Assembly: GCA_018669975.1 (NCBI GenBank)
Contig: JABHSK010000007.1
Span: forward strand, 390-64,389
Direction: 5' to 3'
DNA: 64,000 nucleotides
Source: Candidatus Parcubacteria bacterium
GTDB lineage: Bacteria; Patescibacteriota; Patescibacteriia; UBA1558; GWA2-36-10
Under the pieces are notes generated by a model. That model did no database searches, had not been told where the DNA came from, and worked only from the letters and a program-made list of their open reading frames with translations. Positions 18,670 through 48,487 of this stretch are shown here, one piece after another (position 1 is the first letter of the stretch; the number at the start of each line of letters is the position of its first letter). The position numbers were made by a program, and so were the translations under genes.

Positions 18670-20175
18670 ATGACAAAATACGAGACAATAATTGGTTTAG
18701 AGATTCACTTACAGCTTAAGACTAAGACTAAGATGTTTTGTAATTGTTCTAATGATGGAGAGAATCAAAAACCCAATAGTGTGGTTTGTCCGATTTGCTT
18801 AGGGCACCCTGGAACATTGCCAACTGTTAATAAAGAGGCGGTTAAACAGGGCATGGCTATGGCTCTAGCATTAAGTTGCAAAATAAATACTCAATCAAAA
18901 TTTGATAGAAAGAATTATTTTTATCCAGACCTGCCCAAGGGTTATCAAATATCACAATTTGATGAACCGTTGGCGCATGATGGACATCTGGTGATAGAGT
19001 TGGGAGATAAGAATTGGAAGATAGGTATTGAGCGTCTGCATTTAGAAGAGGATGCTGCTAAAAATATTCATAGCACTGGTCAGACCCTAGTTGATTTTAA
19101 TAGAGGTGGAACACCACTGGCTGAGATTGTTACTAAGCCTGATTTTCGTTATCCAGAACAAGCTAAGGTATTTTTACAGGAGTTAAGGTTAATGGCTCGA
19201 TATTTGGGGGTTAGTGATGCTGATATGGAAAAAGGGCATATGCGTTGTGATGCCAATATATCTCTTAGACCACAGGGTGAAGATAAGCTTTATGAAAAGA
19301 TTGAGGTTAAAAATCTTAATTCTTTCAAGGCTGTAGAAAAAGCTTTATTTTTTGAAGAAGCTAGGCAGACCAAGTTGTGGGATAAGAAAAAACAACCTGA
19401 GAAGACTGAAACTCGTGGTTGGGATGAAGCTAAGCAAGAAACTGTTTTGCAGAGGACCAAAGAGGGCTTTGCAGACTATAGGTATTTTCCAGAGCCAGAT
19501 TTACCGCCCTTGATAATTAGTGAAAAATTATTGATTGAAGTTAAAGCCTCTATTCCTGAATTGCCCGCGGCTAAGAAGAATCGTTTAAGTAAGGAGTATG
19601 GACTCATTGCTGATGATGCTAGGATTCTAGTAGCCCAAAGACATTGGGCTGATTATTACGAGGGTATAATGTCAGATCTTAGAGCTTGGCTATTTAAGAC
19701 AAAGGGTGTGGCAGAGGATACAGATAAGGCTGCTGAGTTGTGGGTTGAGCATCGAGGTAAGTTGGCCAAGTTAACTTTTAATTGGCTAACTAGTGAGTTA
19801 TTTGGTTTAACGGGTACTAATTTTAAATTTGAGGATCTGAAAATCAGTGCTGAAAATATGGCTGAATTACTCAAGATGATTTATAGACAAAAGATTAACT
19901 CTTCAGCTGCTCAGACAGTTCTCAAGGAAATGTACGAAACTGGCGGTGATCCTTCAGCTATTGCCGAGGACAAGGATTTAGCGCAAATAGATGATGATAG
20001 TACTATAGAAGACTTGGTAATCAAGGTAATTATGACCAATACAGCCCAGGTAGAGGAGTACAAGGCTGGCAAGGAGGCAGTGCTCAAATATTTAGTTGGT
20101 ATGGTCATGAAAGAGAGTAAGGGTAGTGCTAATCCGCAGAAAGTAGAACAGATTTTAAAGCAAAAATTGCAATAA
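18670..20175 (+). CDS. gatB: Asp-tRNA(Asn)/Glu-tRNA(Gln) amidotransferase subunit B
   Basis: YETIIGLEIHLQL...FCNC...CPICLGHPGTLP. Confidence 0.85.
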   Translation: MTKYETIIGLEIHLQLKTKTKMFCNCSNDGENQKPNSVVCPICLGHPGTLPTVNKEAVKQGMAMALALSCKINTQSKFDRKNYFYPDLPKGYQISQFDEPLAHDGHLVIELGDKNWKIGIERLHLEEDAAKNIHSTGQTLVDFNRGGTPLAEIVTKPDFRYPEQAKVFLQELRLMARYLGVSDADMEKGHMRCDANISLRPQGEDKLYEKIEVKNLNSFKAVEKALFFEEARQTKLWDKKKQPEKTETRGWDEAKQETVLQRTKEGFADYRYFPEPDLPPLIISEKLLIEVKASIPELPAAKKNRLSKEYGLIADDARILVAQRHWADYYEGIMSDLRAWLFKTKGVAEDTDKAAELWVEHRGKLAKLTFNWLTSELFGLTGTNFKFEDLKISAENMAELLKMIYRQKINSSAAQTVLKEMYETGGDPSAIAEDKDLAQIDDDSTIEDLVIKVIMTNTAQVEEYKAGKEAVLKYLVGMVMKESKGSANPQKVEQILKQKLQ

Positions 20176-20233: not shown

Positions 20234-20262
20234 TTGACAAAAATTAAAAAGTATGTTATGAT
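20234..20262 (+). promoter_or_regulatory. Sigma70 promoter (TTGACA-17-TATGAT) driving the GC-rich genes downstream
   Basis: Exact -35/-10 hexamers with a 17-nt spacer, followed by a ~100-nt leader before the ATG at 20372. Confidence 0.55.
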
Positions 20263-20371
20263 GTTCTATCAACTGCGGACTCCGTTATCTAATTAGAGAG
20301 ACGGACAAGCCGGGTTGATGTAAGAACCTTTCAAAACTTTTTCATCACACACTCTTCTCAGGAGGAAGAAC

Positions 20372-20656
20372 ATGCACAACGTGATCAATCACTGCGAATT
20401 GTACCGGGAAGTCCAGGGCAGCATGGATACCGCTGATTTCCAGGAGGCCGTCATGACCCGTGCCGGCGAGATCGTCGAAGCGGCCAAGAACGGCCAGACC
20501 AGTGATCCGCACAACCTGCGCGGCGTCGAGATCGTTGCCTGGTCCGTGGCACAGCATGTGCTCAACGAAGGTGCCCGTCAGATCGCCAGCGACCTCGGTG
20601 TCGAGATCGATCGGCTCAAGCGCCAGGCGTCCAGCCAGCACATCTCGTCCTGCTAG
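20372..20656 (+). CDS. Hypothetical protein (~60% GC)
   Basis: A GC-rich ORF with the RBS aggagg. No motif recognised. Confidence 0.35.
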   Translation: MHNVINHCELYREVQGSMDTADFQEAVMTRAGEIVEAAKNGQTSDPHNLRGVEIVAWSVAQHVLNEGARQIASDLGVEIDRLKRQASSQHISSC

Positions 20657-20753
20657 TCCGGATTCGTCCGGGTATCACATCCTGAGTTAGACATCAAGTC
20701 CGTGGGGACGGCGATCTCTCGCCGTCCTCTTTTTTTTCAAGGAGGCGCAGACA

Positions 20754-21398
20754 TTGTTTTTTGAAAACAGGACTGATGCTGGTAAGCACCTTGCTCGAAC
20801 TGTACTTGACTCCGGACGTGATTTTTCCGGATTCGAAGTGGTCGGTTTGGCTCGAGGTGGCGTGCCAGTGGCTGAGCCTATTGCTCAGGCTCTGAGCTTG
20901 CCGCTCAAGGCCATGTGTATCGATGATCTTCTGGTCGACGGTTCCAAGTTGGTTTGCACGACCTCTGGTCATGGCTTGCTTTACAAGTTGAGTCGTCCGG
21001 TCGAAGGTACGCAAAAAGTCGATATGGCTCCGCGTTGGATCGAGGACAGTAGTCAGCTGGAATTGACGGGCTTGTCCGAGTTCCTGAGCGAGTTGCAACG
21101 TCGTGAACTGATGTACAACAATGGCCAGGCTTTCCAGCCTGGCATTAAGGTGCTCTTGGTCGACGACGGACTCGTTAGTGGTACAACCATCAAGGTGGCA
21201 GTTCAGGCTCTGCGTCAGCAGGGCGTCGAAGAGATCGTAGTAGCGATACCTGTGGTCCTGCCCTGGACTCAGAACGCTAAGCTCGATTTCGAGTTGATCA
21301 CCTGGAGAGTGTCCACGATGAAGAATGCCGCAACTGGCATGTTTTACTTTGAGTTCGGGGATACACCCGATCAGCAGGTTATGGCCGCCACGGCCTAA
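20754..21398 (+). CDS. Phosphoribosyltransferase-family protein (type I PRTase fold); TTG start
   Basis: VLLVDDGLVSGTT PRPP-binding motif and an N-terminal ...LARGGVPVAEPIA region. GC-rich. Confidence 0.6.
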   Translation: MFFENRTDAGKHLARTVLDSGRDFSGFEVVGLARGGVPVAEPIAQALSLPLKAMCIDDLLVDGSKLVCTTSGHGLLYKLSRPVEGTQKVDMAPRWIEDSSQLELTGLSEFLSELQRRELMYNNGQAFQPGIKVLLVDDGLVSGTTIKVAVQALRQQGVEEIVVAIPVVLPWTQNAKLDFELITWRVSTMKNAATGMFYFEFGDTPDQQVMAATA

Positions 21399-21441
21399 AC
21401 CTCACAAAGTAAAGAGCACCCACTCCGGTGGGTGCTCATTT

Positions 21442-23466
21442 TTATTTGTTCAAAAATTGTTTTAGTAACTTGTTGGCCGTAGCTGGTCCTTTATTCCAAT
21501 GAATTTTGACCCCTTGTTTTTCCATGCGTCGGAACCAGGTTAGTTGCCGTTTAGCATAGTGCCTAGTATTTTGCTTGATTTTATCAATGGCTTTTTCTAG
21601 GTTTATTTTTTTATCTAAATACTCTATGATTTCCCGATAACCAATACCTGATAGGGCAGGTAGTTTTTTGTTGGGGTATTTTTTGTAGATTTTTTTAACT
21701 TCATCAATTGATCCGTCATCTACCATGCGTTCGACTCTGGTGTTTATTTTTTTGTATAATTTTTCTCGATTTGGATCAATGCCAAAGACGATAAAGTCGT
21801 ATGGACATTCTCTGAGCTGAGGATTCGTCGGGTGTAGGTCATAGTTTTGTATAATTGAACAAATATATAGACCAGTGCCACCAGCGATGATTGGTAGCTT
21901 GCCCTTTATTACAATTTTTTCAATAGTTTTAAAAGCGGTTTGTTGCCAGTTATAGAGATTAAATTCTTGATTAGGTCTAACGATATCAAGTAGATGATGG
22001 GGGATGCCCTGCATTTCTTGTTTAGTAATTTTGTTGCTGGCAATATCCATACCCTTATATATTTGGCGGGAGTCTGAAGAAAGTATTTCGCCGTTAAATT
22101 TTTTAGCTAACTCTACGGCTAAGTCAGACTTACCCGCTGCGGTTGGTCCTAGTACTACGGCTATCTTCGGTTTTTTGTACAATTCAGCTTTATATCCCCA
22201 GTGCATGGTTTTTATTAATTTTACTTTATAAAACTCACCAACTTTCAGAGGCTGTTTAGTTTTTGTATGAGCAGCTATATAATTTGATAGTTTGCCGATG
22301 TTGAGGTAACCGCCCTCTGTTTTTTTGACAACATCTATTAACACTTCTCTGGTTTGTCCTAATAATTTTTTATTGAAGGCTGCAGATTGTTTTGATAGCA
22401 ACGAATCTAGTTTTTGCCAGCGTAGTTTTTTTTCAGCTTTAGTGACGTCATCTTTATATAGTTTGGTTGCAGCTGTGCCAGTTCGAGCAGAGTATTGTGA
22501 AATATAAGCCATGTTATATTTTATGTCAGTAAATAATTTAGCCGTAGCTTGAAAGTCTTTTTTGGTTTCAGAACAGAAGCCAACTATAATATCAGTAGAT
22601 ATAGTAATATCTGGCATGGCTTGGCGTATTTTTTTTATTAGCTTTTTGTAATGAGCTACAGTATAATGGCGGTTCATTTTTTTAAGAATCTTGTTTGATC
22701 CAGCTTGAACAGGCAAGTGTAGATAATCATTTAGATTTTTACATTCGCTCATAACTTTTATTAGCTTGTCGGACATATCGTAGGGGTGGCTGGTTAAAAA
22801 TTTTAGCCAAAAGTTGTCACCTAAAGTATCAATTTTTTTTAATAGATCAGGAAAATTAATTTCACCTTTGATATCTCTTCCATAGCTATTTACATTTTGT
22901 CCCAACAAAACAATTTCTTTATAACCCTGTTGGAGTAAACCTTCTACTTCTTTGATTATATGTTTAGCAGGTCGTGAAGTTTCTCGTCCACGAGTATAAG
23001 GGACAACACAGTAGGAGCAAAATTTATTACAGCCAGTCATAATTGGTACATAGGCTCTATAGTTTGACTGGTAATCAGGTTGAATATCAAAAAAATCTGG
23101 TAGAGCTAGTTTTTGTTGCGGTTTTATGTTCTGTAGATCGTCTGCTAGATTGTGCAGTTGCTTGATGTCTATAAATAAATCAAATTTATCTTGCAATTTT
23201 TTCTTATCTCTATCTAAAACACAACCTGATAGCAAGGTTATTAGAGGTCGCTTTTCTTTGACTAGTTGCCAGTTGCGTAATTTGCCGTACATGCGGTCAG
23301 CAGCAGCTTGTCGCACAGAGCAGGCTATGACACCGATTAGGTCAGCTTGGGATTCGTCATCGGTTTCTTGGTAGCCGAGCTGTTTGAGAACAGCGGCTAG
23401 TCTTTCAGCATCAGAATAGTTCATCTGGCAGCCAAATATAATCAAATGGAATTTCTTGGTTTTCAT
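21442..23466 (-). CDS. Fused tRNA methylthiotransferase MiaB (N-terminal) and tRNA dimethylallyltransferase MiaA (C-terminal)
   Basis: The N-terminal MTTase domain is followed by the radical SAM motif CNKFCSYC and a TRAM domain. The sequence then continues in frame into KIAVVLGPTAAGKSDLAVELAKKFNGEILSSDSRQIYKGMDIASNK...RQLTWFRR, the MiaA signature. Confidence 0.75.
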   Translation of the reverse strand: MKTKKFHLIIFGCQMNYSDAERLAAVLKQLGYQETDDESQADLIGVIACSVRQAAADRMYGKLRNWQLVKEKRPLITLLSGCVLDRDKKKLQDKFDLFIDIKQLHNLADDLQNIKPQQKLALPDFFDIQPDYQSNYRAYVPIMTGCNKFCSYCVVPYTRGRETSRPAKHIIKEVEGLLQQGYKEIVLLGQNVNSYGRDIKGEINFPDLLKKIDTLGDNFWLKFLTSHPYDMSDKLIKVMSECKNLNDYLHLPVQAGSNKILKKMNRHYTVAHYKKLIKKIRQAMPDITISTDIIVGFCSETKKDFQATAKLFTDIKYNMAYISQYSARTGTAATKLYKDDVTKAEKKLRWQKLDSLLSKQSAAFNKKLLGQTREVLIDVVKKTEGGYLNIGKLSNYIAAHTKTKQPLKVGEFYKVKLIKTMHWGYKAELYKKPKIAVVLGPTAAGKSDLAVELAKKFNGEILSSDSRQIYKGMDIASNKITKQEMQGIPHHLLDIVRPNQEFNLYNWQQTAFKTIEKIVIKGKLPIIAGGTGLYICSIIQNYDLHPTNPQLRECPYDFIVFGIDPNREKLYKKINTRVERMVDDGSIDEVKKIYKKYPNKKLPALSGIGYREIIEYLDKKINLEKAIDKIKQNTRHYAKRQLTWFRRMEKQGVKIHWNKGPATANKLLKQFLNK

Positions 23467-23543
23467 AGATAATATTGTAGCTATTTTTTAGCAGATAGTA
23501 AAGCGCGCGCCCGTAGTACGGGCGCGCGCATGTATATTTTTTA

Positions 23544-24773
23544 TTAACGATTAAAATCGCGCTGTTGTTGTGGTGTTAAGCTTGGGCTAGGTGCAGGAGG
23601 AGTAACATCTGTTCTCCTGTCTCTAATTTCTTTTAGCATAACAGGGTCGGTTCTAAATGAGTTTTCTAAACTACGTAATTTTTGTACATCGGTAGTAGCT
23701 TGTATTTTTGCTCTGACACCCTGACTTTGCTCTTCTAGTAAAGTCTTTACCTTGCCTTTAAGATTGTCAGGCACCTCTATTGTTTGTAAAAATCTCATGT
23801 ATTCTGGATGAGTCCTAGTGTCAAATTCGTTTAAAAATTTTCTTTTTCCTTCATCACTTAAGTTTTCGAATCTTTGTCGTAATCTTTCACTGTAGCTCTG
23901 CGCAACATTGGAAATAGTATTTTTTACATTGCTGGGTAATTTTTCAGTTTCTTGTAATGTGTTAACAAATTTTTGTTTAACAACTGGGGCTAAATTAATT
24001 TTTTCAATGTATTGTTCTACTTTGGCGGCATCTTCTGGTTTAGCATTTTTTAGTTTTTCAGCTAACCGTGCTCGAGCAGCATCTTTAACAGACTCTAGGT
24101 TGGCTTTAACATCTTCTGGTACCACGTCTTCTAGTTCAGCTACGGTAGCTAAATTTTTAAATTGTTGTAATTTGCTGCCAGTATTTTTTTGTTCAATAAC
24201 TTTTTCCAATCTAGCAGCTATTTGTTCTTTGTTGCTATTGTACCAACGTAGGGCGTTTTCCTTTCTAATGTTTTCTAATTTTTCTGCTACGTCAGTTGGA
24301 ACCTTATCAGACACTTCACGGAGTAATTGTAAATGGTCAAATTCGGTCTGGTCTACTTTTTCCATGATTGTGTTGCGCACCTCGGCGTTATTCTGTATAC
24401 GGTTAGATAGTTTTTCTTTTATTTTTTTATAACGCTCTAGAGTTTTATTTAAGTGTTCAGTGGCATTGGGATTTTTGTTGATGATTTGTTTGGCCTCTAA
24501 TAATAATTGGCTAGAGTATTTTTGTTCTTTGGTGGCTTTTTTGACATCGTCAAAAGTGAAAAACAAATCAACATTTCTTTTTACATTTTGCCACCAATAA
24601 CCACCGTCACCTTCAGTGGTGCTAGGCTCTTCTACGTTTAATTTCATAGCAGTTATTTCATCAACTGCTAGTTCCTGACTAACTACACTTTCATCCTGAG
24701 CTTGAGCTAGAGGAGTTGCTATAAAAAACAAGCCCAATATAGCAGTTAGACTAATTAGTTTAAAAGTTATCAT
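23544..24773 (-). CDS. Secreted hypothetical protein (signal peptide, coiled-coil-rich)
   Basis: N-terminal signal MITFKLISLTAILGLFFIATPLAQA with a K/E-rich helical body. Confidence 0.5.
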   Translation of the reverse strand: MITFKLISLTAILGLFFIATPLAQAQDESVVSQELAVDEITAMKLNVEEPSTTEGDGGYWWQNVKRNVDLFFTFDDVKKATKEQKYSSQLLLEAKQIINKNPNATEHLNKTLERYKKIKEKLSNRIQNNAEVRNTIMEKVDQTEFDHLQLLREVSDKVPTDVAEKLENIRKENALRWYNSNKEQIAARLEKVIEQKNTGSKLQQFKNLATVAELEDVVPEDVKANLESVKDAARARLAEKLKNAKPEDAAKVEQYIEKINLAPVVKQKFVNTLQETEKLPSNVKNTISNVAQSYSERLRQRFENLSDEGKRKFLNEFDTRTHPEYMRFLQTIEVPDNLKGKVKTLLEEQSQGVRAKIQATTDVQKLRSLENSFRTDPVMLKEIRDRRTDVTPPAPSPSLTPQQQRDFNR

Positions 24774-48306: not shown

Positions 48307-48381
48307 AGGGGTGTAGCTCAGCAGGATAGAGCGTCTCGTTTCGGCGAGAGGTCGAAGGTTCGATTCCTTCCACCCCTGCCA
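48307..48381 (+). tRNA. tRNA-Arg (anticodon most likely UCG)
   Basis: Acceptor aggggtg/cacccct-g-CCA, D-arm gctcagcaggatagagc and T-arm gaagg-ttcgatt-ccttc. As read, the anticodon stem tctcg/cgaga encloses a 6-nt loop tttcgg. Confidence 0.6.
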
Positions 48382-48412: not shown

Positions 48413-48487
48413 GTCCACGTACCTCAGGGGTAGAGGGCTTGTGTGTTAAGCAAGTTGTCACTGGTTCAAATCCAGTCGTGGACTCCA
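48413..48487 (+). tRNA. tRNA-Asn (GTT)
   Basis: Acceptor gtccacg/cgtggac-t-CCA, anticodon stem cttgt/gcaag with loop gtGTTaa, and T-arm actgg-ttcaaat-ccagt. Confidence 0.8.

What the first reader, a model, noticed from the sequence alone, without database searches (positions are those of the whole stretch)
21442..23466. In-frame fusion of MiaB and MiaA in a single 674-aa protein
A complete MiaB (MTTase N-domain, radical SAM CNKFCSYC, TRAM domain) runs without a stop into a complete MiaA (P-loop GPTAAGKS through the C-terminal RQLTWFRR). The two enzymes act consecutively on A37 of tRNA (i6A, then ms2i6A). A covalent fusion is a Rosetta-stone arrangement that I do not recognise as a standard architecture.
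Basis: partly seen in the sequence, partly recalled or inferred. Interest (0 to 1): 0.55.

Follow-up and report, generated by a model that had tools for sequence, protein, structure and literature searches.

The report
Fused MiaB–MiaA tRNA-modifying enzyme
One 674-residue protein of an uncultured Parcubacteria bacterium joins the two enzymes that consecutively build the ms2i6A modification on tRNA; the fusion is real and recurs in this group, and its MiaA half lacks the tRNA-clamping domain seen in every solved tRNA-specific MiaA structure.

Summary
The ORF at 21442-23466 (-) is real: 674 aa with no stop. Residues 1-431 are a complete MiaB and 432-674 are a MiaA, both above NCBI's curated cut-offs. 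It is not an assembly artefact. The identical protein is on 4 public contigs, and 16 homologs at 68-88% identity from other assemblies have the same architecture.

The origin is simple. Across Patescibacteria, miaB is followed directly by miaA, often with overlapping stop and start. The fusion is that pair with the boundary lost, leaving 0-8 residues between the last TRAM strand and the MiaA P-loop strand.

It lacks the ~60-70-residue insertion domain (E. coli 131-192, including tRNA-binding R167 and R170). All catalytic and DMAPP-binding residues are kept.

Comparative pattern in 106 miaB/miaA loci:
- Both tRNA-binding domains kept: 57.
- MiaA insertion domain lost: 16, the query type.
- MiaB TRAM lost: 33.
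- Both lost: 0.

This suggests the two enzymes share one tRNA clamp. Sampling is biased, and a free-standing mini-MiaA occurs in Phocicoccus with no miaB within 10 kb.

Verdict: a genuine, undescribed variant of known enzymes, of moderate interest.

The parts
21442..23466 (-). Whole fusion gene, 674 aa plus stop codon (21442-21444)
   Evidence: 100% identical to P0001, NCBI 'MiaB [Candidatus Parcubacteria bacterium]'.
23182..23454 (-). MiaB N-terminal methylthiotransferase domain (UPF0004), aa 5-95. The auxiliary-cluster cysteines are C13, C49 and C82 (C13 and C49 inside this domain, C82 also inside it).
   Evidence: Pfam PF00919, 68.8 bits. Cysteines verified. C49 and C82 are invariant in 49 fused proteins.
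22534..23049 (-). Radical SAM core, aa 140-311, with CxxxCxxC at aa 146-153 (23008-23031)
   Evidence: Pfam PF04055, 88.9 bits. C146, C150 and C153 are invariant. Translation checked.
22174..22356 (-). TRAM domain of MiaB, about aa 371-431 (beta-strands at 372-429)
   Evidence: TIGR01574 aligns to residue 428. AF2 secondary structure. Foldseek to 7MJV-7MJZ over 441-443 columns, TM 0.86-0.88. The Pfam TRAM model is below E 0.01 here.
22165..22182 (-). Fusion junction, aa 429-434 (LYKKPK). The last TRAM strand is followed after 4 residues by MiaA strand beta1. There is no linker and no Met.
   Evidence: pLDDT is 90-96 across aa 421-440.
21823..22173 (-). MiaA core, N-terminal part, aa 432-548. 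It holds the P-loop GPTAAGKS (22126-22149) and T442, K446, S447, D465, Y470, K479 and H490.
   Evidence: Residue roles are taken from PMC8234997.
21802..21834 (-). Deletion scar, aa 545-555 (HPTNPQLRECP). This short loop replaces the ~60-70-residue insertion ('swinging') domain.
   Evidence: The boundaries are identical throughout the query clade.
21517..21822 (-). MiaA core, C-terminal part, aa 549-650, with R577 (E. coli R217) and K639 (E. coli K280) in AKRQLTWFRR
   Evidence: R577 and K639 are invariant in 49 fused proteins.
21445..21516 (-). C-terminal tail, aa 651-674, less conserved
   Evidence: Mean pairwise identity 0.55 against 0.75 for the catalytic parts.
23474..23502 (-). Promoter-like site TTTACT-17-TACAAT just upstream of the ATG (consensus match only)
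   Evidence: The number of such sites in the region is not above chance.
23503..23529 (.). 12-bp GC-rich hairpin between the upstream DUF5667 gene and the fusion gene, terminator-like
21414..21437 (.). 10-bp hairpin just downstream of the stop codon, terminator-like on both strands

Best explanation
The gene encodes one polypeptide that carries both activities needed to make ms2i6A37 on tRNAs reading UNN codons. The C-terminal half is a tRNA dimethylallyltransferase (MiaA) core. The N-terminal half is a complete radical-SAM methylthiotransferase (MiaB) with the MTTase domain, radical SAM core and TRAM.

Origin (shown). In Patescibacteria miaB is normally followed directly by miaA, often with overlapping stop and start codons (ATGA type). 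Loss of that boundary welded the last TRAM strand to the first MiaA strand with 0-8 residues between them. In the query clade the MiaA had already lost its insertion domain, because free-standing 243-250-aa MiaA genes with the same deletion boundaries sit next to miaB in close relatives. An unfused Komeilibacteria-type group nests inside the fused clade. One fusion followed by one fission is therefore the most parsimonious history. Other, more distant fusions that keep the insertion domain or lack TRAM show that the fusion arose more than once.

Mechanism (inferred). The MiaA core prenylates N6 of A37 with DMAPP. The same tRNA is then methylthiolated at C2 by the MiaB half. Covalent linkage guarantees 1:1 stoichiometry and local hand-over of the i6A-tRNA intermediate.

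A further, less certain step (about 0.4). Because the MiaA half lacks its own anticodon-stem clamp, it relies on the MiaB half, TRAM especially, to hold the anticodon stem-loop. On this view the two enzymes behave as one complex that needs only one accessory RNA-binding module.
For: Identity of the two halves:
- HMM scores are above curated cut-offs for both equivalogs, and Pfam finds the expected domains.
- PDB sequence matches are MiaB 7MJV/7MJZ at E 1e-78 and MiaA 2QGN at E 1e-59.
- The AF2 model has pLDDT 88.6 and pTM 0.78, with an ordered junction.
- Foldseek gives TM 0.86-0.88 to MiaB and 0.85-0.87 to MiaA cores.

Catalytic competence:
- All six Fe-S cysteines are present.
- The equivalents of E. 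coli T19, K23, T24(S), D42, Y47, K56, H67, R217 and K280 are all kept.
- Among 17 fused-short proteins the MiaA halves are as conserved (0.75-0.76) as the MiaB catalytic domains (0.75-0.76).

Not an artefact:
- Searches show the same architecture in independent assemblies.

Origin from an adjacent pair:
- Synteny miaB, 171 nt, 248-aa miaA, then convergent gatB in L080 matches the window.
- 78 adjacent and 19 fused pairs were found among 106 loci.
- Junction sequences of relatives show overlaps, and L006 has an in-frame stop.

Phylogeny (bootstrap NJ):
- The fused group plus the Komeili-type unfused group is supported at 98%.
- The unfused group is monophyletic at 100%.
- The fused group alone is monophyletic in only 2% of replicates.

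Shared-clamp idea:
- The 106 loci split as TRAM+/ins+ 57, TRAM+/ins- 16, TRAM-/ins+ 33 and TRAM-/ins- 0. Fisher p = 0.002, uncorrected for phylogeny.
- The insertion domain was lost at least 3 times with different boundaries in miaA genes next to miaB (the query clade, L032 and L033).
- The literature calls the insertion domain one wall of the tRNA cleft (PMC8234997) and TRAM a possible non-specific RNA clamp (PMC2952846).
Against: - No biochemical data exist for any member.
- R167 and R170, two of the four residues assigned to tRNA binding in E. coli MiaA, are absent with their domain. Prenyl transfer to tRNA by this half is inferred, not shown.
- Both active sites must receive the same flipped-out A37, so the tRNA must re-dock between steps. 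The rigid junction gives no hint of how. Model coordinates and PAE were not available to examine the interface.
- Against the shared-clamp step: about 20 of the 150 best 50%-identity clusters are free-standing mini-MiaAs.
- In cultured Phocicoccus pinnipedialis the mini-miaA sits in the usual mutS-mutL context with no miaB within 10 kb.
- The 106 loci were retrieved with the two variant proteins as seeds and represent few independent events.
- The window holds no second miaA or miaB, but the rest of the genome could not be checked.
Confidence: 0.8

Rival explanations
1. The fusion has no functional coupling. It is a neutral by-product of genome streamlining in a lineage where miaB and miaA already overlapped. 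The two halves act independently on tRNA, and the insertion domain is simply dispensable for MiaA in some lineages. This rivals only the shared-clamp part of the best explanation.
For: - Free-standing mini-MiaAs are common (about 20 of the top 150 clusters).
- They occur in the cultured Firmicute genus Phocicoccus with no miaB within 10 kb.
- An unfused group nests inside the fused clade, so splitting the protein is tolerated.
- A one-base change in an ATGA overlap is enough to fuse the genes.
Against: - The fusion is retained over divergence down to 68% identity in the query clade.
- It arose again in other lineages.
- TRAM loss and insertion-domain loss were never seen together in 106 loci.
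- The junction is always short and is predicted to be ordered.
Confidence: 0.4
2. The MiaA half is catalytically dead. It would be a relic, or serve only as an extra RNA- or DMAPP-binding appendage of MiaB, and i6A would be made by another enzyme.
For: - The insertion domain with R167 and R170 is missing.
- The rest of the genome could not be searched for a second miaA.
Against: - All catalytic and DMAPP-binding residues are kept and are invariant across 49 fused proteins.
- The MiaA half is as conserved as the MiaB catalytic domains.
- It scores 239 bits against a cut-off of 148.65.
- Close relatives carry the same short MiaA as a separate gene.
- There is no second miaA in the 64-kb window.
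Confidence: 0.06
3. The short MiaA half has been retargeted to free adenine nucleotides, like the adenylate isopentenyltransferases of cytokinin synthesis, which also lack the insertion domain.
For: - The plant adenylate IPT 3A8T aligns to query MiaA residues 1-164 in one stretch, with no gap at the deletion point.
- Pfam IPT (PF01745) gives 33.5 bits, above its cut-off of 20.
- Foldseek also hits 3A8T and Tzs 2ZE5.
Against: - The similarity to tRNA-type enzymes is far stronger: IPPT 214 bits and TIGR00174 239 bits, and 40% identity to 2QGN against 14-26% to adenylate IPTs.
- The tRNA-binding K56 and K280 equivalents are kept.
- The domain is welded to MiaB, whose only known substrate is i6A37-tRNA.
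- The nearest long relatives are ordinary MiaAs.
Confidence: 0.04
4. It is a sequencing or assembly artefact: two ordinary adjacent genes joined by a missed stop or frameshift.
For: - Adjacent unfused miaB-miaA is the commonest state in relatives.
- Reads could not be inspected.
Against: - The identical protein is on 4 contigs from different sources.
- Sixteen further fused homologs come from independent assemblies, and 5 full-length fused genes plus one cut by a contig end were re-read from species-representative MAGs.
- The junction lacks the N-terminal residues and start codon that free-standing MiaAs have.
Confidence: 0.02

Closest known systems
MiaB, tRNA (i6A37-C2)-methylthiotransferase (B. 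uniformis structures 7MJV-7MJZ; T. maritima and E. coli enzymes)
   Same: Residues 1-431 have the three-domain layout: MTTase N-domain with 3 Cys, radical SAM CxxxCxxC, and TRAM. They score 387 bits on the MiaB equivalog model. They are 35-36% identical to 7MJV-7MJZ with TM 0.86-0.88.
   Different: A second enzyme is covalently attached to the end of TRAM with no linker. The Pfam TRAM model is sub-threshold.
MiaA, tRNA dimethylallyltransferase (E. coli 2ZM5/3FOZ with tRNAPhe; B. halodurans 2QGN/3EXA; S. epidermidis 3D3Q; P. aeruginosa 3CRM)
   Same: It has the P-loop core fold and the catalytic and DMAPP-binding residues T19, K23, D42, Y47, H67 and R217, plus K56 and K280. It scores 239 bits on the MiaA equivalog model. 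TM is 0.85-0.87 to crystal forms where only the core is ordered.
   Different: It lacks the whole insertion ('swinging') domain, E. coli 131-192, with R167 and R170. That domain forms one wall of the tRNA-binding cleft. It also has no N-terminus of its own.
MnmC, bifunctional enzyme for the last two steps of mnm5(s2)U34 synthesis (from my own knowledge, not tested here)
   Same: It follows the same logic. Two enzymes catalysing consecutive steps on one anticodon-loop nucleoside are joined in one polypeptide in some bacteria and encoded as separate genes in others.
   Different: The folds, chemistry and tRNA position are unrelated. This is an analogy only.
Adenylate isopentenyltransferases (hop AIPT 3A8T; Agrobacterium Tzs 2ZE5/2ZE7)
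   Same: They have the same P-loop IPT core without the tRNA-clamping insertion domain, and Tzs has a similar size.
   Different: They are much more distant in sequence, 14-26% identity against 40% to MiaA. They act on free nucleotides and are never linked to MiaB.
Free-standing mini-MiaA (Komeilibacteria-type MAGs L013/L080; Phocicoccus schoeneichii WP_308808168.1; P. pinnipedialis)
   Same: They are MiaAs of 243-250 aa with no insertion domain. The Komeilibacteria-type ones share the exact deletion boundaries of the query and lie next to miaB.
   Different: They are separate polypeptides. The Phocicoccus ones are an independent deletion and are not next to miaB.

Membership tests
MiaB (radical-SAM methylthiotransferase, i6A37-specific) | N-terminal MTTase (UPF0004) domain with three cysteines for the auxiliary [4Fe-4S] cluster | tested here: met
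   PF00919 at 68.8 bits, aa 5-95. C13, C49 and C82 are present. C49 and C82 are invariant in 49 homologs. The 36/33 spacing matches T. maritima C10/C46/C79 (own knowledge).
MiaB (radical-SAM methylthiotransferase, i6A37-specific) | Radical SAM core with the CxxxCxxC motif | tested here: met
   PF04055 at 88.9 bits. CNKFCSYC at aa 146-153, invariant.
MiaB (radical-SAM methylthiotransferase, i6A37-specific) | C-terminal TRAM domain | tested here: met
   The Pfam TRAM model is below E 0.01. TIGR01574 aligns to residue 428 of the protein and position 435 of 437 in the profile. Beta-strands lie at 372-429. Foldseek covers 441-443 columns of MiaB structures.
MiaB (radical-SAM methylthiotransferase, i6A37-specific) | Score above the curated cut-off of the MiaB equivalog model, and better than the MtaB and RimO models | tested here: met
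   TIGR01574 scores 387.4 against a cut-off of 355.3. MtaB TIGR01579 scores 285 (cut-off 357) and RimO TIGR01125 scores 249 (cut-off 357).
MiaB (radical-SAM methylthiotransferase, i6A37-specific) | Methylthiolation of i6A37 in tRNA | not testable with these tools
   Needs anaerobic reconstitution and LC-MS.
MiaA (tRNA dimethylallyltransferase) | P-loop core with catalytic and DMAPP-binding residues (E. coli T19, K23, T24, D42, Y47, H67, R217) | tested here: met
   The equivalents are T442, K446, S447, D465, Y470, H490 and R577. Residue roles are from PMC8234997.
MiaA (tRNA dimethylallyltransferase) | Score above the curated cut-off of the MiaA equivalog model | tested here: met
   TIGR00174 scores 239.1 against a cut-off of 148.65, in two stretches.
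MiaA (tRNA dimethylallyltransferase) | Insertion ('swinging') domain that clamps the anticodon stem-loop, with tRNA-binding R167 and R170 | tested here: not met
   Alignments to 2QGN, 3D3Q, 3EPH, 2ZM5 and 3CRM all skip this domain. It is replaced by an 11-residue loop at aa 545-555. TM to full-length MiaA is only about 0.69, against 0.85-0.87 to core-only models.
MiaA (tRNA dimethylallyltransferase) | Core tRNA-binding residues K56 and K280 | tested here: met
   The equivalents are K479 and K639, both invariant in 49 fused proteins.
MiaA (tRNA dimethylallyltransferase) | Prenylation of A37 in tRNAs with A36-A37-A38 | not testable with these tools
   Needs an enzyme assay. The window holds only tRNA-Asn and one odd tRNA, so the substrate set could not be examined.
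Adenylate isopentenyltransferase (Pfam IPT PF01745; Tzs, Tmr, plant IPT) | Best match to the IPT model or to adenylate IPT structures rather than to tRNA-IPT | tested here: not met
   PF01745 scores 33.5 bits against 214.3 for PF01715. Identity is 14-26% to 2ZE5, 2ZE7 and 3A8T against 40% to 2QGN.

The most novel reading that the evidence does not exclude
In Patescibacteria, MiaB and MiaA form an obligate two-enzyme machine, covalent in the query, that binds the anticodon stem-loop once and installs ms2i6A37 in two steps using a single shared RNA clamp. On this reading either MiaB's TRAM or MiaA's insertion domain has become expendable, but never both. The query would be a natural minimal 'ms2i6A synthase'. 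It would imply that MiaA and MiaB may also cooperate physically in organisms where they are separate.
Probability: 0.3. Interest if true: 0.6.

Novelty: new variant of a known kind. Interest (0 to 1): 0.45.

Why it matters
MiaA and MiaB are textbook, separately studied enzymes of a widely conserved tRNA modification that tunes decoding of UNN codons.

- A natural covalent fusion is Rosetta-stone evidence that the two act together. It offers a compact single-protein system for structural and kinetic study of how an i6A-tRNA intermediate passes from a prenyltransferase to a radical-SAM enzyme.
- MiaA lacks the insertion domain here, in many free-standing mini-MiaAs, and even in a cultured Firmicute genus. 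This challenges the structure-based view that the domain is required for tRNA recognition.
- The reciprocal, never-combined loss of TRAM and the insertion domain gives a concrete, testable hypothesis about shared RNA binding.
- On the practical side, these proteins are annotated only as 'MiaB'. Automated surveys of tRNA-modification genes would therefore score such genomes as lacking MiaA.

Tried and rejected
- First idea: loss of the insertion domain was a consequence of the covalent fusion. Rejected, because close unfused relatives carry the same short MiaA as a separate gene, and short MiaAs exist far from this clade.
- Single origin of all fusions. Rejected, because the fused-long and TRAM-less fused proteins fall in different lineages from the query clade.
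- Internal translation start for a separate MiaA. There is no Met or start-like codon at the junction. The only minus-strand promoter-like hit inside the gene is about 330 nt upstream of the junction, and such hits are not above chance.
- Search of the AlphaFold database for fused architectures and their taxonomy. The library was not available.
- Literature searches for a described MiaB-MiaA fusion or a Patescibacteria tRNA-modification survey found nothing relevant.
- The protein comparison output for P0001 against P0267 omitted the main MiaB alignment. My own BLASTP and MAFFT runs showed 48% identity over residues 4-358.
- One locus (L087) first looked as if it lacked both TRAM and the insertion domain. 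Alignment showed that it keeps the insertion domain and lacks only the C-terminal tail.
- dN/dS was not attempted, because synonymous sites would be saturated at 70-75% protein identity. Per-domain identity was used instead.
Full report
**Observation**

The minus strand of the window carries one uninterrupted ORF from the ATG at 23466 to the stop at 21442-21444, 674 aa.
- Pfam places UPF0004 at aa 5-95, Radical_SAM at aa 140-311 and IPPT in the C-terminal third.
- NCBIfam scores the protein above the curated cut-offs of both equivalog models. MiaB TIGR01574 gives 387.4 bits against 355.3, over aa 5-428. MiaA TIGR00174 gives 239.1 bits against 148.65, starting at aa 437.
- The MiaB score beats the MtaB and RimO models, which stay below their cut-offs.
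- The six cysteines for the two Fe-S clusters are present: C13, C49, C82, C146, C150 and C153.
- The Pfam TRAM model does not reach E 0.01. The TRAM region is covered by the MiaB equivalog model, by the predicted beta-strands at 372-429, and by superposition on solved MiaB.

**Not an artefact**

- The identical protein (P0001) is on four contigs in NCBI, JGI and ENA, the longest 844 kb. It is named only 'MiaB [Candidatus Parcubacteria bacterium]'.
- Sixteen further proteins at 68-88% identity and 660-688 aa, from other assemblies, have the same four Pfam domains in one chain. They align without a gap across the junction.
- In a scan of one genome per species, I re-derived five full-length fused ORFs and one cut by a contig end from the DNA of different MAGs (L001-L005, L007).
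A shared assembly error across independent studies is not credible.

**Anatomy of the junction**

The last TRAM strand (WGYKAEL) is followed after 0-8 residues by the first MiaA strand and the P-loop (KIAVVLGPTAAGKS) in every fused protein. There is no Met or alternative start at the junction.

An AlphaFold2 model built on 49 fused sequences has mean pLDDT 88.6 and pTM 0.78. pLDDT is 90-96 across residues 421-440, and only four residues separate strand 424-429 from strand 434-439.

Foldseek against the PDB:
- The N-terminal half matches B. uniformis MiaB (7MJV-7MJZ) with TM 0.86-0.88.
- The C-terminal half matches MiaA.
- No solved chain covers both halves. The best query-normalised TM is 0.59.

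**The MiaA half is a minimal core**

The MiaA half is 243 aa. It aligns to every solved tRNA-specific MiaA in two blocks that skip the insertion domain:
- B. halodurans 118-186
- S. epidermidis 119-194
- yeast Mod5 110-183
- E. coli 131-192
- P. aeruginosa 126-197

The model superposes better on crystal forms where only the core is ordered (2QGN at 0.87, 3CRM at 0.85) than on full-length MiaA (about 0.69).

A review of the structural and mutational work describes MiaA as a core plus a small insertion domain, with the anticodon stem-loop bound in the cleft between them. It assigns the E. coli residues as follows (PMC8234997):
- K23, T24, H67 and R217 bind DMAPP.
- K56, R167, R170 and K280 bind tRNA.
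- T19 and Y47 act on the transition state, and D42 is in the active site.

Mapping through the E. coli alignment gives T442, K446, S447, D465, Y470, K479, H490, R577 and K639. All are kept, and most are invariant in 49 fused proteins. R167 and R170 are lost with their domain.

Among the 17 proteins of the query clade, the two MiaA segments have mean pairwise identities of 0.75 and 0.76. These equal the values for the MTTase (0.76) and radical SAM (0.75) domains. The MiaA half is therefore under the same constraint as the MiaB catalytic domains.

**Where the fusion comes from**

In the close unfused relative P0020 (71% identical MiaB), miaB (432 aa) is followed after 171 nt by a separate 248-aa miaA and then a convergent gatB. 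The window has the same gene order, with gatB at 18670-20175, apart from an inserted GC-rich island.

ORF-level classification of the genome loci shows that miaB followed directly by miaA is the rule across Patescibacteria. Named examples include Komeilibacteria, Nomurabacteria, Moranbacteria and Paceibacter. Stop and start often overlap.

Junction states in relatives:
- ATGA-type overlaps in L015, L022, L032 and L011.
- A 27-nt gap with in-frame stops in L006.
- Spacers of 170-190 nt in L010 and L013/L080.

A single small change at such a boundary produces the fusion.

**Order of events**

- A MiaA alignment shows that all fused-short proteins, the Komeilibacteria-type free-standing short MiaAs, and L011 and L030 share the same deletion boundaries (QNYDLxPxxPxLR | xCPYDF). 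This points to one deletion event.
- L032 and L033 lack the domain with different boundaries. These are independent deletions.
- Bootstrap neighbour-joining on concatenated MiaB and MiaA (652 columns, 100 replicates) gives three figures. The fused group plus the Komeilibacteria-type unfused group is supported at 98%. The unfused group is monophyletic at 100%. The fused proteins alone are monophyletic in only 2% of replicates.
- One fusion followed by one fission is the most parsimonious reading. Several parallel fusions cannot be excluded.
- L011 and L030 group with the short clade in the MiaA tree (74%) but with a long-MiaA clade in the MiaB tree. This suggests exchange of miaA or more complex histories.
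- More distant fused proteins of 705-776 aa (40-55% identity, some named Buchananbacteria) keep the insertion domain and fall in other lineages. The fusion therefore arose more than once.

**A reciprocal variant and a pattern**

The MiaA half was searched against 1.84 billion cluster representatives.
- About 20 of the best 150 clusters are free-standing MiaAs of 233-257 aa. They match across the deletion point in one stretch, and all lack the insertion domain, each with a different loop.
- P0267 (645 aa) is a MiaB with no TRAM. It is 48% identical to query residues 4-358, and query residues 359-431 are absent. It is joined through a short Pro-rich segment to a full MiaA with the insertion domain.

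A metagenome scan seeded with P0267 found at least 11 fused loci of this TRAM-less type. It also found 21 loci where a TRAM-less miaB lies next to a full-length miaA.

The 106 loci with one MiaB core and one MiaA classify as follows:

| State | Adjacent | Distant | Fused | Total |
|---|---|---|---|---|
| TRAM+ / insertion+ | 47 | 7 | 3 | 57 |
| TRAM+ / insertion- | 10 | 1 | 5 | 16 |
| TRAM- / insertion+ | 21 | 1 | 11 | 33 |
| TRAM- / insertion- | 0 | 0 | 0 | 0 |

Fisher's exact test gives p = 0.002. The loci were seeded on the two variants and represent few independent events, so this is suggestive only.

[quoted passage not shown] The insertion domain is the MiaA clamp. The pattern fits a model in which the paired or fused enzymes need only one of the two.

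**Evidence against that model**

Mini-MiaA is not confined to this context.
- One cluster contains the MiaA of the cultured Firmicute Phocicoccus (formerly Jeotgalicoccus) schoeneichii.
- Within Staphylococcaceae-like relatives, only Phocicoccus has the 245-aa form. Jeotgalicoccus and Salinicoccus have 302-314 aa.
- In P. pinnipedialis the gene lies in the usual mutS-mutL-hydrolase-miaA context, with no miaB within 10 kb.

The insertion domain can therefore be lost without an adjacent miaB. Whether Phocicoccus has a miaB elsewhere, or makes i6A at all, could not be tested.

**Mechanism proposed**

Shown:
- One polypeptide carries a complete MiaB and a catalytically intact MiaA core.
- The junction is rigid and short.
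- The fusion derives from a conserved miaB-miaA gene pair.
- Both halves are under purifying constraint.

Inferred from the established pathway (MiaA makes i6A37 from DMAPP, MiaB converts i6A37 to ms2i6A37):
- The protein performs both steps on the same tRNA.
- Fusion gives fixed stoichiometry and local hand-over of the intermediate.

More speculative (about 0.4):
- The MiaB half, through TRAM, supplies the RNA hold that the MiaA core has lost.

**Comparison with known families, and novelty**

- The N-terminal half passes every sequence and fold test for MiaB.
- The C-terminal half passes the catalytic and HMM tests for MiaA but fails one structural hallmark, the insertion domain. It is best called a MiaA-derived minimal core.
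- It resembles adenylate isopentenyltransferases in lacking that domain, but it is far closer in sequence to tRNA-type enzymes.
- The closest functional analogy is MnmC, a two-step tRNA-modifying fusion that is split in some bacteria (own knowledge).
- The architecture is already deposited in public databases, annotated only as MiaB or occasionally as MiaA.
- Full-text searches found no description of it.
- I rate it a new variant of a known kind, with moderate interest.

**Transcription unit**

A strong hairpin (23503-23529) follows the upstream DUF5667 gene. A promoter-like site (23474-23502) precedes the ATG. A hairpin (21414-21437) follows the stop. The gene looks monocistronic. These are consensus matches only.

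Noticed in passing
window 20250-21420: A GC-rich island (GC 0.51-0.59, against 0.33-0.42 around it) lies between gatB and the fusion gene. It holds a 214-aa phosphoribosyltransferase-domain ORF (20754-21398 +, PF00156 E 6e-12) and a 94-aa ORF with no Pfam hit (20372-20656 +). In the unfused relative L080, gatB abuts miaA directly, so the island looks like a foreign insertion.
   Followed up: partly
window 48307-48381 (+): ARAGORN reports a tRNA of undetermined identity with a two-base 'anticodon (tc)'. It lies 31 nt upstream of tRNA-Asn at 48413-48487.
   Followed up: no
L083-L088, L090, L092, L095, L099, L100 (fused); L089, L093, L107, L108, L131, L135, L137, L151, L153, L154, L161 and others (adjacent); protein P0267: A recurrent reciprocal variant. 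MiaB lacks its TRAM domain and is fused to, or sits directly upstream of, a full-length MiaA that keeps the insertion domain. No locus of 106 had lost both TRAM and the insertion domain.
   Followed up: partly
L163 10001-10738; proteins P0279, P0311: The cultured Firmicute genus Phocicoccus has a 245-aa MiaA lacking the insertion domain, while sister genera have 302-314 aa. The gene sits after mutS-mutL and a hydrolase gene, with no miaB within 10 kb.
   Followed up: partly
proteins P0124, P0131, P0141, P0144, P0148, P0154, P0163, P0166, P0196, P0198, P0199, P0203, P0215, P0220, P0223, P0250, P0255, P0262, P0265: There are many distinct clusters of free-standing mini-MiaA (233-257 aa). Each has a different short loop in place of the insertion domain, which suggests repeated independent losses. 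Most are unnamed metagenomic proteins.
   Followed up: partly
proteins P0145 (497 aa) and P0167 (580 aa): Other MiaA fusions exist. P0145 is MiaA plus QueH, the epoxyqueuosine reductase, another anticodon-loop modification enzyme. P0167 is a PNP_UDP_1 nucleoside phosphorylase or nucleosidase domain plus MiaA.
   Followed up: no
L006 5299-5327; L010 5296-5483: In L006, miaB and the short miaA are in the same frame, separated only by 27 nt containing in-frame stops. This is a state one step away from fusion or fission. In L010, the 187-nt spacer contains, in another frame, a partial duplicate of the MiaA N-terminus (KQKIIVVLGPTAS) upstream of the real start.
   Followed up: no
L011, L030 (also L032, L033): L011 and L030 group with the query clade in the MiaA tree and share its deletion boundaries, but they group with a long-MiaA clade in the MiaB tree. 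This hints at exchange of miaA between lineages. L032 and L033 carry independent insertion-domain deletions with other boundaries.
   Followed up: partly
window 23544-24773 (-): The upstream neighbour is a 409-aa protein with an N-terminal hydrophobic segment and a DUF5667 domain (PF18915, E 1e-8). It is followed by a perfect 12-bp GC hairpin at 23503-23529.
   Followed up: no
L060-L064, L071-L079: MiaB ORFs of Peribacteria and Gracilibacteria MAGs appear broken into pieces under table 11. This is expected if UGA is read as a sense codon in these lineages (own knowledge). They were left out of the classification.
   Followed up: no
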